DNA of 45,947 nucleotides from Candidatus Thorarchaeota archaeon (GCA_048884965.1 JBHLQH010000029.1:1-45947), one strand, 5' to 3'. Positions 43,071 through 45,947 are shown, numbered from the stretch's first letter. Translations and numbers: made by a program. Notes: generated by a model not told the origin, from the letters alone.

Positions 43071-44153
43071 TCAGAAGAATGGTGAGATTTCTTTCAGGAT
43101 TTTATTCAGGATTCTCGCATTCTTCTTGACAATGTCCTCATCTATCATGCGTTCTTCCTGATCCTCCAGCATGGGAAGTGGGTTCCCTCTTAGACCTTCA
43201 AGGGTCGCTCGAACACAGGGTCCCAATACCAATGGATTGTAGCCTCCTTCAAGAACCCAGAATGACCCCTTCAAGCCAAGTGATCTGACTAGGTCATTGA
43301 TTGTATTGGCTATGAACCAATAGGTCGTCGAATCGACTGCCATATCTCCAATCGGGTCAGTATAGTGTGCGTCATACCCTGCAGAAACTGCAATCACATC
43401 CGGTTGGAAGTTCTCAATTGCTGGAACCACAATCTTAGATATCGCAGACTGATAGGAAGCATCAGGAGCTCCTTCATGCAACGGGATATTGATATTCATG
43501 CCTTTCCCTTCTCCGCGTCCTATCTCTTTGAAATGTCCTAGACCGAAGCTTGCGTAATTATACTCATGAAGGGAAATGAATTGGACATTAGGGTCGTCAT
43601 AGAAAATCTCTGCCGTTCCATTCCCAAAGTGGTCATCGATATCCAGTATTGTGACCCTCTTCACATCGTCTTCCTTTAGAATGGTGCGAGCGGCAATGGC
43701 CACATTGTTGAAGAAACAGAGTCCCATGGATGCAGAACTCGTTGCATGATGTCCTGGAGGCCGAATTAAGGCAAAGGTATGGTCTGTAGAGTCAGAAAGG
43801 ACCAGCTCTGCAGCAATTAGTGCGCCACCAAGAGCATAGAGGGTGGATGACAGTAGATTCTCACTGGCATAGGCTGACTCGCCAAGTTGCCCACTGCCTA
43901 GCTCTGACATCAATTGGACCGAGTGGACCAAGTATGGTGAGTGAACGATCATAGCTTCTTCACAATGGGCTCGTGGCGTCTTCAGTGTCAAAATGTCATT
44001 GAGAGCATTATTCTCCTCTAGGTACTGAAGTGTCATCTTTATACGATCAGGATTCTCGAATCCTTCCATATGGGGCTTGGGAAATGGGGCAACGTGCTGA
44101 TCAAGCCCGGTCTGCTCAATGAGGGTTATAGCACCTCGTGACATATCTGACAC
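43071..44153 (-). CDS. Zn-dependent histone-deacetylase-family protein (HDAC/AcuC superfamily)
   Basis: RPPGHHA, GLCFFNNVAIAA, DIDDHFGNGT, SLHE, SAGYDAH..DPIG, LEGGY. Confidence 0.93.
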   Translation of the reverse strand: MSDMSRGAITLIEQTGLDQHVAPFPKPHMEGFENPDRIKMTLQYLEENNALNDILTLKTPRAHCEEAMIVHSPYLVHSVQLMSELGSGQLGESAYASENLLSSTLYALGGALIAAELVLSDSTDHTFALIRPPGHHATSSASMGLCFFNNVAIAARTILKEDDVKRVTILDIDDHFGNGTAEIFYDDPNVQFISLHEYNYASFGLGHFKEIGRGEGKGMNINIPLHEGAPDASYQSAISKIVVPAIENFQPDVIAVSAGYDAHYTDPIGDMAVDSTTYWFIANTINDLVRSLGLKGSFWVLEGGYNPLVLGPCVRATLEGLRGNPLPMLEDQEERMIDEDIVKKNARILNKILKEISPFF

Positions 44154-44242: not shown

Positions 44243-44289
44243 CTTATAAATATCGGAACCGATATCGGTATTGATATCGGAAGCGATAT
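44243..44289 (+). promoter_or_regulatory. TATA box followed by three tandem 12-bp palindromic operator units
   Basis: CTTATAAA, then ATATCGGAACCG / ATATCGGTATTG / ATATCGGAAGCG / ATAT (44250-44289). Confidence 0.75.
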
Positions 44290-44342: not shown

Positions 44343-44915
44343 ATGCATTACAGAAAAAAAACACCTTGCTATGGGCATCATGGTCCTGGTGGCCACAGTC
44401 CTTGGAGACGAAGAATGGCAAAGGTCCCAAAGGGATTCCTGCGCCATTATGTTCTGAAACTGCTCGATGAACAACCTCGATCGGGCTCAGAGATAATGAG
44501 TGCGATTGCAGAACGCACAGAACAACGATGGGAACCAAGTCCAGGTTCAGTGTATCCATTGCTTTCTTGGCTTCATGATTCCGGATATACTAGGATCGCT
44601 GATGATCAAGAATCGGGAATAAAACGATATGAATTGACAGAGTCAGGGAAGGAGTTCCTAAAGGAACATGATGACATGCATCCTGAGTTTGATGAAACCG
44701 TGGAAGATGTTGGTCCTCGTTTCAGAGGAGGCAAGAAACTACCCGATGAGGCTCGGGAATTGTTCAGGAGCTTTCGCAAGATACGAAAGACTAGTTGGAA
44801 GATTTTCGATACCCTACGACAGGACTATTCAGAAAATCTCGTGAAAGAAACCAAAGCAGCAGTGGACGAGTTCATAGCGAAGCTAGAGATACTTGCAGAG
44901 AAGAAGGAAGCGTGA
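44343..44915 (+). CDS. PadR-family transcriptional regulator with His-rich N-terminus
   Basis: PKGFLRHYVLKLL..PRSGSEIM..WEPSPGSVYPLL..KRYELTESG. Confidence 0.92.
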   Translation: MHYRKKTPCYGHHGPGGHSPWRRRMAKVPKGFLRHYVLKLLDEQPRSGSEIMSAIAERTEQRWEPSPGSVYPLLSWLHDSGYTRIADDQESGIKRYELTESGKEFLKEHDDMHPEFDETVEDVGPRFRGGKKLPDEARELFRSFRKIRKTSWKIFDTLRQDYSENLVKETKAAVDEFIAKLEILAEKKEA

Positions 44916-44976: not shown

Positions 44977-45729
44977 TCATACTTCAGATTCAAGCTCCTG
45001 TGTCTCTGATAATTGGACTATATGAGATGGAAGTACGCGCAGCACCTGATAGCCAATAGTCACCATCATTATCACTGCCAGCAGTACTTTGATGGGCGTT
45101 ATGATTCCTGCACCAAGCCATAATAGCTGAAGATCCTCTGGGGTGAACCCGTAGAAAATCCAATATGTCTGGCCAGGAACGAGTAGGAATACTCTGGTGA
45201 GAATATCACTCTCTAGACCTATCACAGTGCAGAATATCAGTCGCAATAGGTCCTTCTCTCTGCTCATCTCATTCCACCATTGTCGATTCACAAGCACAGA
45301 GAAAAGCACAACAAATCCAAAACCCACCAAGATGTCCCAAATACCAAATAGCGGGAGTGTCCATGAAACCGGATATAGGAAATACCCCGCAAGTAATCCG
45401 GAATAGATGATGAGAACTGGCTTCCATCTCCGTTGATATACTAATCCTGCCATTGCTGCTCCTATGGGTGCTCCAATCATATACAGAAGCTCGAACACAT
45501 CACGAAAGAACAGGATATGTCCAATCAGACTACCAATACCAATTGCAGCAAATCCACCAATCGGTCCAAGCAAGACGCCAACTATGGGGCTTAGAAGGAA
45601 TATCCATGAATCCCAGATTCCACTAGAGAAGCCTGGTGTAAGGATAAGGTCAAGGGCTGCAGCCATTGCAGCGAAAATAGCTGAAAAGGCAATGAAGTGA
45701 CTTTTCGATGATTCGATAGGGATGGCCAT
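44977..45729 (-). CDS. Probable ECF transporter S-component
   Basis: FSAIFAAMAAAL (AxxxA helix), LSPIVGVLLGPIGGFAAIGIG, 6-7 TM. Confidence 0.7.
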   Translation of the reverse strand: MAIPIESSKSHFIAFSAIFAAMAAALDLILTPGFSSGIWDSWIFLLSPIVGVLLGPIGGFAAIGIGSLIGHILFFRDVFELLYMIGAPIGAAMAGLVYQRRWKPVLIIYSGLLAGYFLYPVSWTLPLFGIWDILVGFGFVVLFSVLVNRQWWNEMSREKDLLRLIFCTVIGLESDILTRVFLLVPGQTYWIFYGFTPEDLQLLWLGAGIITPIKVLLAVIMMVTIGYQVLRVLPSHIVQLSETQELESEV

Positions 45730-45769
45730 AATTTGCTGTTACAATACAATCGACCTTATACTCCTACCG

Positions 45770-45813
45770 GAAAATAGGAAAAGGAGAAAGAGCAGACGCT
45801 AAATCTAGCGTCT
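45770..45813 (-). terminator. Hairpin + pyrimidine tract after the 26-aa ORF
   Basis: Minus strand AGACGCTA-gatt-TAGCGTCT (+ coordinates 45794-45813), then GCTCTTTCTCCTTTTCCTATTTTCC. Confidence 0.65.
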
Positions 45814-45885
45814 GAAGTAGGCTTGAGTGATAGCCTTGGTAGAGATCTGGGTCTTGGGTGACTTGGATACTTTCGCGAGTGCCAT
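45805..45885 (-). CDS. 26-aa small protein MALAKVSKSPKTQISTKAITQAYFRR
   Basis: ATG at 45885 with GAGGT SD upstream, TAG 45805-45807, codon choice like acs, terminator downstream, similar to the upstream frame. Confidence 0.65.
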   Translation of the reverse strand: MALAKVSKSPKTQISTKAITQAYFRR

Positions 45886-45890
45886 GTTGA

Positions 45891-45947
45891 TTACCTCACA
45901 ACAGTTGCGTAAGCGTAGCCTACAGCCTTGGTCGAAGCGACCTGTTT
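45891..45947 (-). CDS. 3' end of an ORF ...KQVASTKAVGYAYATVVR* (truncated by window end)
   Basis: Open frame from 45947 to TAA at 45891-45893; shares STKAxxxAY with the 26-aa ORF. Confidence 0.55.
   Translation of the reverse strand, partial: KQVASTKAVGYAYATVVR

What the first reader, a model, noticed from the sequence alone, without database searches (positions are those of the whole stretch)
45770..45947. Unannotated tandem micro-peptide genes with a shared STKAxxxAY motif (possible end of a peptide array)
Seen on minus: ...KQVASTKAVGYAYATVVR* followed 5 nt later by MALAKVSKSPKTQISTKAITQAYFRR*. The second ORF's SD (GAGGT) overlaps the end of the first. Both share Q..STKA[VI]xxAY and a terminal Arg, with ACCAAGGCT repeated 92 nt apart. 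Codons resemble those of acs, and a hairpin terminator closes the unit. Inference: a translationally coupled cassette of paralogous cationic Ser/Thr/Lys-rich peptides, such as RiPP precursors, antimicrobial or signalling peptides, or nucleic-acid binders. An ECF-type S-component follows on the same strand. The rest lies beyond the window.
Basis: partly seen in the sequence, partly recalled or inferred. Interest (0 to 1): 0.72.

Follow-up and report, generated by a model that had tools for sequence, protein, structure and literature searches.

The report
Thorarchaeal twin microprotein operon copy
The two tiny genes at the end of this contig are real: they are one copy of an unnamed family of about 30-residue basic proteins that Thor/Hermod-type Asgard archaea keep in many copies behind one fixed promoter. 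The membrane-protein gene next to them is only a chance neighbour, and what the tiny proteins do is still untested.

Summary
The minus strand holds the last 18 codons of a 33-aa ORF1 and a complete 26-aa ORF2. ORF2 has an SD built from ORF1's last codons, and a hairpin plus T tract lies over its stop.

- **Not an array end.** The contig breaks inside a repeat. The missing promoter and ORF1 start lie on contig C40, which overlaps the window end by 77 identical bases.
- **Multi-copy.** This genome has at least 8 such cassettes.
- **Lineage-specific.** A profile of the peptides hits 40 of 43 genomes of one Thor/Hermodarchaeota family and 0 of 157 genomes from 26 other families of the phylum.
- **Coding.** Window ORF2 differs from its paralogue on C11 at 10 bases, all synonymous. 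Family-wide pN/pS is 0.3-0.5, against 1 or more in shifted frames.
- **Shared control region.** 41 copies carry the same operator, TATA box and initiator in a fixed register.
- **Neighbour is incidental.** The S-component-like gene has the cassette upstream in only 2 of 24 genomes and keeps its own promoter. One MFS exporter has it in 22 of 22 orthologues.
- **RiPP unlikely.** No radical-SAM gene lies on the same contig within about 60 kb of a cassette (contigs are short), and no YcaO gene was detected in the assembly.

No known family, structure or paper matches. This scan met the family at least eight times before on other DNA. Function is unknown; my best guess is trans-acting microproteins.

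The parts
45891..45947 (-). 3' part of ORF1 (last 18 codons plus TAA) of a 33-aa microprotein, MALATNTRTEFVKMKKQVASTKAVGYAYATVVR. The first 15 codons and the promoter lie outside the window, on contig C40:1-213.
   Evidence: profile E = 1.2e-14 for the C40 copy. Against the C81 copy, 4 of 5 differing codons are synonymous.
45893..45897 (-). Shine-Dalgarno-like GAGGT for ORF2, formed by ORF1's last Arg codon and stop, 7 nt before the ATG.
   Evidence: the same arrangement in about 40 copies. SD-like motifs stand before 24% of long ORFs in this genome, against 3-5% at control positions.
45805..45885 (-). ORF2, a 26-aa microprotein MALAKVSKSPKTQISTKAITQAYFRR plus TAG (pI 11.2, net charge +6).
   Evidence: 10 nt differences from the C11 paralogue, all synonymous.
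45793..45814 (-). Hairpin (9-bp stem, 4-nt loop) that contains the last two Arg codons and the stop codon of ORF2.
   Evidence: The cassette in the same position in G005 has a hairpin of different sequence at the same place (ACGTTGA-TTGTTC-TCAACGT plus TTTTCC).
45769..45792 (-). T-rich tract after the hairpin. With the hairpin it is the likely 3' end of the cassette transcript.
   Evidence: Archaeal termination at oligo-T is from own knowledge; the 3' end was not mapped.
45754..45761 (-). GTATAAGG, a TATA-like box about 30 nt before the ATG of the next gene. It is that gene's own promoter, not part of the cassette.
   Evidence: The same box at the same distance stands before the orthologues in G001 and G004, which have no cassette.
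44977..45729 (-). Neighbour, not a partner: a 250-aa multi-pass membrane protein that resembles ECF S-components only weakly.
   Evidence: PF12822 at 23 bits, below the cut-off of 30.7; TIGR04518 at 10 bits. The cassette stands upstream in 2 of 24 genomes with the gene.

Best explanation
The finding is the 3' two-thirds of one copy of a multi-copy, self-contained microprotein operon specific to one Thor/Hermodarchaeota (Asgard) family.

How it is expressed. The elements below are read from sequence; their roles are inferred.
- A fixed-register control region (on C40 for this copy) holds the palindrome TAGTCACA-N3-TGTGAC at about -88..-72 and TGTGACCC at about -64..-57.
- It continues with GTGGCT at about -50, the TATA box TATATATACT at -40..-31, and CTTGTGAAATATC directly before the ATG.
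- This layout would give an mRNA with a 5' leader of only about 8-10 nt.
- ORF1 (33 aa) is read first. ORF2 (26 aa) is translationally coupled through an SD made of ORF1's terminal Arg codon and stop.
- The transcript most likely ends at the hairpin plus T tract that overlaps the ORF2 stop.
- This copy is a two-ORF version. Most other copies add a third, poorly conserved ORF whose end is itself a conserved terminator hairpin.

What it does (inferred, untested). ORF1 and ORF2 are paralogous, basic proteins of about 3-3.6 kDa, predicted at moderate confidence to be helical. They are made together and most likely act in trans inside the cell as small binding proteins of an envelope/efflux regulon. 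The same promoter type drives MFS exporters and a bactofilin-like gene. Small proteins such as MntS act this way on the exporter MntP.

The S-component-like gene downstream is an independent transcription unit. The cassette was inserted, or carried by recombination, next to it.
For: - **Real and coding.** Third codon positions vary most, and pN/pS is 0.49 (ORF1) and 0.30 (ORF2), against 0.9-5 in shifted frames. Window ORF2 against C11 ORF2 shows 10 of 10 synonymous differences. The terminal Arg-Arg is kept here with non-SD codons (AGA CGC), so it is selected at the residue level. The frame is open, at 26-38 aa, in about 250 matches, with one in-frame stop among the 150 listed.
- **Multi-copy.** At least 8 cassettes lie in this genome. 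Summed contig depth rises from 10-16 to 50-220 inside the repeat in three DNA runs.
- **Lineage-specific.** 40 of 43 genomes of the family have it, and 0 of 157 genomes from 26 other families. Only 46 clusters match among 1.84 billion proteins, all tiny apart from one spurious repeat protein, and none of the ten I looked up carries a functional name.
- **Fixed promoter.** 41 copies stack without gaps. The 52-nt core is 98-100% identical among this genome's copies, while ORF1 is 76-98%.
- **Autonomous unit.** Many copies end at a hairpin and T tract with unrelated genes beyond. The family occurs in 14 of 16 genera, while the linked MFS-A occurs in 6.
- **Link to efflux and envelope genes.** 22 of 22 MFS-A orthologues have family ORFs directly upstream. 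Promoters of the same type stand before an MFS-B paralogue (E = 1.4e-6) and, more weakly, a bactofilin-like gene.
- **Neighbour incidental.**
- **C40-C29 join.** The 77-nt overlap is identical, and G005 and G001 show matching synteny.
- **Fold.** AlphaFold2 predicts two short helices, with mean pLDDT 70.
Against: - No expression data exist. No RNA run holds the stretch, and no transcription start, 3' end or peptide has been observed.
- No binding partner is known. The trans-acting role is inferred only from autonomy and co-regulation.
- The invariant link of an ORF2-type gene to MFS-A (22 of 22) fits a leader-peptide or exported-peptide role equally well.
- The physico-chemical values (pI 10-11, GRAVY -0.0 to -0.4) overlap those tabulated for leaderless bacteriocins.
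- The hairpin over the ORF stop resembles the speFL arrangement.
- The structure model has only moderate confidence.
- The promoter of this particular copy is on another contig, joined through a repeat.
Confidence: 0.45

Rival explanations
1. Cis-acting sensor (leader or arrest) peptides. The nascent ORF1 or ORF2 chain stalls the ribosome at its stop codon in response to a metabolite or a translation inhibitor. The stall changes termination at the overlapping hairpin, or the coupled initiation of the next cistron (MFS pumps), as SpeFL and TnaC do in bacteria.
For: - An ORF2-type gene stands immediately before the MFS-A start in 22 of 22 orthologues, with the SD inside its last codons.
- The C-terminal Arg is invariant, there is a conserved aromatic-containing C-terminal segment, and all three stop codons are used.
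- The hairpin includes the ORF's 3' end, as described for speFL, which is 34 aa, ends in Arg and precedes a transporter operon.
Against: - Most cassettes, this one included, end at a terminator with no regulated gene. Here the next gene has its own conserved promoter, and the association holds in 2 of 24 genomes.
- The family is found in 14 of 16 genera, but MFS-A in only 6.
- The distance from the ST.A motif to the stop varies between 8 and 10 residues among members, which is unusual for geometry that depends on the exit tunnel.
- The N-terminal MALA.N is conserved in both ORFs, and there are always two tandem paralogues.
- Between ORF1 and ORF2 (a 5-nt gap) there is no hairpin that could mask an SD.
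Confidence: 0.2
2. Exported leaderless peptides, either archaeocin-like antimicrobials or signals. They would be made as tandem paralogues and pumped out by the linked MFS transporters, which would also protect the producer.
For: - The peptides are tandem paralogous cationic peptides of 26-36 aa without a leader, in several loci per genome.
- Their size, pI, charge and GRAVY fall within the range tabulated for leaderless bacteriocins (enterocin Q: 34 aa, +4, GRAVY -0.36). A multidrug-type transporter serves LsbB secretion and immunity.
- The link to an MFS_3 'secretion effector' type pump is strict.
Against: - The family is present in 40 of 43 genomes of a family-level clade, under purifying selection with near-identical ORF2 across genera. 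Bacteriocins are usually patchy and fast-evolving (own knowledge).
- Most cassettes and most genera lack the MFS-A partner.
- A 3-kDa peptide is an unusual substrate for an MFS carrier (own knowledge).
- The peptides have no Trp and little hydrophobic surface.
- No immunity or ABC genes are seen next to this genome's copies, but neighbours were read only as ORFs, with Pfam run on five proteins.
Confidence: 0.15
3. RiPP precursors: the peptides are modified by dedicated enzymes encoded nearby.
For: The peptides are Ser/Thr/Lys-rich small peptides in tandem, with conserved ends and a variable middle.
Against: - None of the 32 radical-SAM matches lies on the same contig within about 60 kb of any cassette (contigs are short).
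- No YcaO gene was detected in the 96%-complete assembly.
- No Cys is present.
- The neighbours of the eight copies are unrelated to each other. LanM/LanC, peptidase and ABC families were not searched.
- The cassettes are closed by their own terminators.
Confidence: 0.03
4. Not protein-coding: a repeated promoter-proximal RNA or DNA element whose open frames are incidental.
For: - The promoter core is more conserved than the ORFs.
- The element is repeated and breaks the assembly.
- No peptide has been detected.
Against: - Substitutions follow codon periodicity, and pN/pS is below 0.5 only in the annotated frame.
- 10 of 10 differences between window ORF2 and C11 ORF2 are synonymous.
- The frames stay open across some 250 matches despite 30-60% amino-acid divergence.
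- There is no Rfam match.
Confidence: 0.04

Closest known systems
Small-protein regulators of transporters, e.g. E. coli MntS, which binds and inhibits the exporter MntP (bioRxiv 10.1101/2023.06.02.543501; PMC4361602)
   Same: Proteins under 50 aa, co-regulated with a transporter, that act by binding a larger protein. The family here is strictly linked to one MFS exporter (22 of 22) and shares its promoter type with other pumps.
   Different: - No sequence relation, and no binding has been shown.
- Here there are two paralogous proteins per operon and 8 or more operons per genome.
- Most operons stand alone.
- The family is archaeal and lineage-specific.
SpeFL, the 34-aa ornithine-sensing arrest peptide before speF-potE (bioRxiv 10.1101/604074), and TnaC
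   Same: About 33 aa with a C-terminal Arg before the stop. An mRNA hairpin includes the ORF's 3' end. It precedes transporter genes in a subset of loci. Any stop codon is used.
   Different: - No homology.
- Two tandem ORFs.
- Most copies regulate nothing downstream.
- The motif-to-stop spacing is not fixed.
- Archaea lack Rho.
- Stalling is untested.
Multi-peptide leaderless bacteriocin operons such as aureocin A70 and enterocin L50 or 7A/7B (review PMC6131525)
   Same: Tandem paralogous cationic peptides of 26-44 aa made without a leader or modification. Similar pI, charge and GRAVY. Efflux-type transporter genes lie in some loci.
   Different: - Near-universal and conserved within a family-level clade, instead of strain-variable.
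- 8 or more loci per genome behind one promoter.
- No Trp.
- No immunity or ABC genes seen next to this genome's copies (not searched by family model).
- Activity is untested.
Reused or 'mobile' promoters in prokaryotes (PMC3575422)
   Same: A near-identical promoter segment (98-100% over 52 nt) recurs at many loci before different genes. The cassette is present beside the S-component-like gene in 2 of 24 genomes and absent from the same site in G001.
   Different: The reused unit here carries two protein-coding micro-genes and an operator. It is conserved across at least 14 genera in a fixed register, and no transposase or terminal repeats were seen.

Membership tests
Thor/Hermodarchaeota 'MALA' microprotein family (undescribed; defined here by alignment A1) | ORF of 26-38 aa that starts M-A-L-A, holds [ST]-T-x-A-[ILV]-x-x-A-[YF], and ends in Arg | tested here: met
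   Window ORF2 and the ORF1 tail align over their full length. Profile E = 3.9e-8 for ORF2 and 6.1e-14 for ORF1 on C40.
Thor/Hermodarchaeota 'MALA' microprotein family (undescribed; defined here by alignment A1) | An ORF1-type and an ORF2-type gene in tandem, coupled by an SD made of the terminal Arg codon and stop | tested here: met
   GTGAGGTAATCAAC-ATG in the window. The same arrangement occurs in about 40 copies.
Thor/Hermodarchaeota 'MALA' microprotein family (undescribed; defined here by alignment A1) | Fixed-register operator, TATA box and initiator region upstream of ORF1 | tested here: met
   It lies outside the window, on C40:100-213, joined by a 77-nt identical overlap and supported by synteny with G005 and G001. 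The join runs through a repeat, so it is probable rather than proven.
RiPP precursor peptides | A maturation enzyme gene (radical SAM, YcaO, LanM/LanC type and similar) in the same locus | tested here: not met
   No radical-SAM gene lies on the same contig within about 60 kb of any of the 8 cassettes. No YcaO was detected in the assembly. Neighbours differ between copies. LanM/LanC were not searched.
Leaderless multi-peptide bacteriocins | Tandem cationic peptides of 30-45 aa without a leader | tested here: met
Leaderless multi-peptide bacteriocins | A dedicated exporter or immunity gene in the locus, and antimicrobial activity | tested here: inconclusive
   This copy has no conserved partner. 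Other copies carry an MFS pump. Activity is not testable with these tools.
Ribosome arrest or leader peptides (SpeFL/TnaC type) | A short ORF on the same transcript directly before the gene it controls | tested here: not met
   In the window a hairpin and T tract, then a separate conserved TATA box, lie between ORF2 and the next gene. The association holds in 2 of 24 genomes. The feature is met in the MFS-A copies elsewhere.
Ribosome arrest or leader peptides (SpeFL/TnaC type) | Programmed stalling at a defined codon | not testable with these tools
   This needs toeprinting or ribosome profiling.
ECF transporter S component (PF12822), for the downstream gene | A score above the family's curated cut-off | tested here: not met
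   23.0 bits against a cut-off of 30.7. TIGR04518 gives 10 bits against 60. It is best called 'S-component-like'.

The most novel reading that the evidence does not exclude
ORF1 and ORF2 are nascent-peptide sensors. The ribosome stalls at their Arg-stop end in response to a small molecule or a translation inhibitor. The stall governs termination at the stop-embedded hairpin and the coupled translation of efflux pumps. I know of no archaeal ribosome-arrest peptide system; this would be one, spread as a multi-copy cassette in Asgard archaea.
Probability: 0.2. Interest if true: 0.85.

Novelty: new variant of a known kind. Interest (0 to 1): 0.5.

Why it matters
Asgard archaea are the closest known prokaryotic relatives of eukaryotes, and most of their lineage-specific genes are uncharacterised. 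These genes are mostly missing from annotation: ORF2 is shorter than the 90-nt minimum of common gene callers (own knowledge). Yet they are among the most repeated and best conserved coding units in one Thor/Hermodarchaeota family. They sit behind a strictly fixed promoter and operator, and they are invariably fused to one efflux pump. That gives three things: a defined regulon, a DNA site for an unknown regulator, and a testable case of microprotein biology in a group with very few cultured members. In practical terms, the cassette is a repeat that breaks assemblies (this contig ends in it). Its copies may also drive rearrangements, since a 24-kb contig here is flanked by inverted copies.

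Tried and rejected
- **Rfam:** nothing on a complete copy.
- **Known families and structures:** no Pfam, NCBIfam or PDB-sequence match for ORF1, ORF2 or ORF3. The only hit was a meaningless 14-bit CreS_N match.
- **ESM Atlas:** no usable hit.
- **RNA evidence:** no RNA holder was listed for the stretch, so there is no evidence on expression either way.
- **Anti-SD check:** the MAG holds no 16S rRNA, so the anti-SD could not be read. I used genome-wide SD enrichment instead.
- **P0002:** this 797-aa protein with 8 'matches' is a low-complexity repeat protein, not a relative.
- **ORF3 selection test:** its N-terminal part is too divergent between copies, leaving only one usable pair.
- **'Too hydrophilic for a bacteriocin':** I dropped this argument after reading the values tabulated in PMC6131525.
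- **Operator search in this genome:** apart from the cassettes it gave only one clear extra site (MFS-B, C8) and several weak ones, so the regulon is only sketched.
- **Papers:** searches on Thorarchaeota or Asgard with small proteins or microproteins found nothing on this family.

Full report
**1. What is in the window**

On the minus strand the window ends with ...KQVASTKAVGYAYATVVR plus TAA (45947..45891). Five bases later comes ATG...MALAKVSKSPKTQISTKAITQAYFRR plus TAG (45885..45805).
- GAGGT (45897..45893) lies in ORF1's last codons, 7 nt before the ORF2 start.
- ACCAAGGCT occurs twice, exactly 92 nt apart.
- A 9-bp hairpin (45814..45793) contains ORF2's two Arg codons and its stop and is followed by a T-rich tract. 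Its energy is -20.2 kcal/mol with z = -3.5, and it is the only terminator-like site in the last kilobase.

**2. What lies beyond the window**

The window is the whole of contig C29, and the contig stops inside a repeat. Other copies lie on C81 (complete), C1, C11 (start), both ends of C40, and the end of C5.
- C40:1-77 is identical to window 45871-45947. Read onward, C40 supplies the missing start: ORF1 is only 33 aa (MALATNTRTEFVKMKKQVASTKAVGYAYATVVR) and is preceded by a promoter, not by more peptide genes.
- Synteny supports the join. In G005 (same genus) a small divergent membrane-protein gene like the one on C40 is followed by the cassette and then the same 250-aa gene. In G001 the C40-like genes abut the 250-aa gene without any cassette.
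- The join still runs through a repeat, so it is probable rather than proven.
- In three DNA runs, long contigs match 45000-45853 without a difference and then break. Summed contig depth rises from 10-16 to 50-220 in the repeat, and the loose ends are the flanks of the C11, C81 and C1 copies.

**3. The ORFs are coding**

- Across about 45 cassette copies from more than 20 genomes, both frames stay open at 26-38 aa while the amino-acid sequence diverges to 30-60% identity.
- Differences concentrate at third codon positions. pN/pS is 0.49 (ORF1 type) and 0.30 (ORF2 type), against 0.9-5.3 when the same alignments are read in shifted frames. The pairs are not independent, so this is a qualitative result.
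- Within this genome, window ORF2 and C11 ORF2 differ at 10 nucleotides in 7 codons, and all are synonymous. ORF1 on C40/C29 and on C81 differ in 5 codons, 4 of them synonymous.
- In most copies the terminal Arg-Arg is encoded by AGG AGG, which doubles as the next cistron's SD. Here no coupled cistron follows, the codons are AGA CGC, and the residues are still kept.
- SD-like motifs stand before 24% of long ORFs in this genome, against 3-5% at control offsets.

**4. The family**

ORF1 and ORF2 are paralogues: M-A-L-A-x-N ... [ST]-T-x-A-[ILV]-x-x-A-[YF]-x(1-4)-R (alignment A1).
- This genome holds at least 8 cassettes, each with one ORF1-type and one ORF2-type gene. They lie on C1, C11, C81, C40+C29, C9, C53 and C32, with a cut copy at the end of C5.
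- The profile hits 40 of 43 sampled genomes of one family and 0 of 157 genomes from 26 other families of the phylum.
- Public records of relatives are titled Candidatus Thorarchaeota and Candidatus Hermodarchaeota.
- Among 1.84 billion representative proteins only 46 clusters match. All are about 30-aa proteins, some with a mis-called N-terminal extension, apart from one spurious repeat protein. Of ten looked up, nine have no name and one is called 'hypothetical protein'.
- Pfam, NCBIfam, PDB sequences, the ESM Atlas and Rfam give nothing, and no paper was found.
- AlphaFold2 with the family alignment predicts two short helices (residues 7-14 and 21-30) at mean pLDDT 70.
- The window peptides have pI 10.3 and 11.2 and net charge +5 and +6.

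**5. The control region**

Forty-one copies from at least 14 genera stack without gaps. From upstream to the start codon they carry:
- TAGT[CA]ACA-N3-TGTGAC;
- TGTGACCC;
- GTGGCT;
- TATATATACT at -40..-31;
- CTTGTGAAAtATc, directly followed by ATGGCT.

Among this genome's copies the 52 nt before the ATG are 98-100% identical, while ORF1 is 76-98% identical. I infer a TATA box with a very short 5' leader, and an unknown regulator that binds the repeated TGTGAC boxes. None of this has been mapped.

A model of the operator and TATA part finds one further clear site, before an MFS-B paralogue on C8. It also finds weaker sites before a bactofilin-like gene (C2) and an ABC permease (C18).

**6. Cassette endings**

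Most copies carry a third ORF of 30-40 aa that can barely be aligned except for its end, (D/E)VLALEAT-stop. Those last codons are a hairpin followed by a T tract. The hairpin shows compensatory changes that involve the stop codon itself: CTT/TAA changes to CTC/TGA, and GTG/CAC to GTA/TAC.

The window copy lacks ORF3 and has its own hairpin over the ORF2 stop. The G005 copy at the same genomic position has a different hairpin sequence at the same place. The recurring design is therefore a last stop codon embedded in a terminator hairpin.

**7. The neighbour**

The 250-aa membrane protein resembles ECF S-components only below threshold (23 bits against 30.7). Of the 24 genomes that hold the gene (23 of 60 relatives plus this one), only this genome and G005 have the cassette upstream. 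Orthologues in G001 and G004, which lack the cassette, keep the same GTATAAGG box about 30 nt before the ATG. The gene is therefore an independent unit, and the adjacency is a lineage-specific juxtaposition.

As a positive control for this test, all 22 orthologues of the MFS exporter next to the C1 copy (MFS_1/MFS_3) have family ORFs directly upstream, while three distant paralogues do not. That exporter occurs in only 6 of 16 genera, whereas the microprotein family occurs in 14 of 16.

**8. Mechanism**

What is read from sequence: a repeated, self-contained, coding two-gene operon with a fixed promoter, SD coupling and a stop-embedded hairpin and T tract.

What is inferred:
- **Trans-acting microproteins (about 0.45).** The products act in trans as small basic helical proteins tied to an efflux/envelope regulon. 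Three points favour this. Most cassettes are closed units with nothing to regulate downstream. The family is wider than any one partner gene. The whole peptide, including the N terminus, is under selection in both paralogues.
- **Arrest or leader peptides (about 0.2).** The model draws on the 22 of 22 link to MFS-A, the invariant Arg-stop and the hairpin over the ORF end, which parallel speFL. Stand-alone copies and variable motif-to-stop spacing (8-10 residues) weigh against it.
- **Exported leaderless peptides (about 0.15).** The model fits the physico-chemistry and the tandem paralogues. It does not fit the near-universal, conserved distribution.
- **RiPP precursors (about 0.03).** No radical-SAM gene lies on the same contig within about 60 kb of a cassette, and no YcaO gene was detected in the assembly.

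**9. Earlier notes of this scan**

By sequence look-up, the scan had already met this family at least eight times: twice in this genome on other contigs and six times in three other genomes. Those notes reached the same description, an undescribed family of roughly 30-aa basic microproteins with a shared promoter, often before MFS pumps, of unknown function. I re-derived these points independently here.

- the contrast between 2 of 24 (S-component-like gene) and 22 of 22 (MFS-A);
- the 40 of 43 against 0 of 157 distribution;
- the all-synonymous paralogue comparison;
- the fixed-register promoter stack;
- the stop-codon covariation in the ORF3 hairpin.

**10. Verdict**

This is an ordinary copy, cut by the contig end, of a family that is itself undescribed and of moderate interest.

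Noticed in passing
G000 contig C40:1-213 and C40:24074-24168 (outside the window): The 24-kb contig C40 carries outward-facing cassette promoters at both ends, as inverted copies. In G004 the polX-like gene at C40's right end lies directly before the S-component-like gene. In G005 and G001 the gene at C40's left end does. This suggests recombination or inversion between cassette copies.
   Followed up: partly
L006 (G000:C81) 1668-1710 and 17 other loci: The third micro-ORF of most cassettes ends in (D/E)VLALEAT-stop. These codons form a conserved terminator hairpin in which the stop codon's middle base covaries with the third base of a Leu codon (CTT/TAA against CTC/TGA). Coding and RNA structure constrain the same bases.
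   Followed up: partly
G000:C1:228143-228332 (L005 1647-1836): The MFS-A frame is open from just after the ORF2 stop region and encodes a conserved N-terminal segment (FSTILHRPDYLRLW...). It has no ATG, GTG or TTG before the first Met, 63 codons in. This points to a non-canonical start (CTG or ATT after AGGAGGT) or to coupling to ORF2 in another frame.
   Followed up: no
G000:C8:55971-56028, C2:49032-49076, C18:46315-46359: Promoters of the same operator and TATA type, without micro-ORFs, stand before an MFS-B paralogue (E = 1.4e-6). Weaker matches stand before a 424-aa bactofilin-like gene and an ABC permease/ATPase pair. These may be further members of the same regulon.
   Followed up: partly
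G000:C11:249-375 (L003): The apparent third ORF of the C11 copy is packed with GGTCAC/GTGACC half-sites. It looks like a second operator and promoter before the MFS-B gene rather than a peptide gene. The same holds in g6 genomes between ORF1 and ORF2.
   Followed up: partly
window 44343-44915 (+) and 43071-44153 (-): A PadR-family regulator gene (55 bits) converges on the S-component-like gene, and a class I/II histone-deacetylase-domain gene (252 bits) lies beyond it. Whether PadR controls the membrane protein was not examined.
   Followed up: no
window 44250-44289: A short tandem repeat (12-nt unit ATATCGGAACCG, 3.3 copies) lies in the gap between the deacetylase-like gene and the PadR gene.
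   Followed up: no
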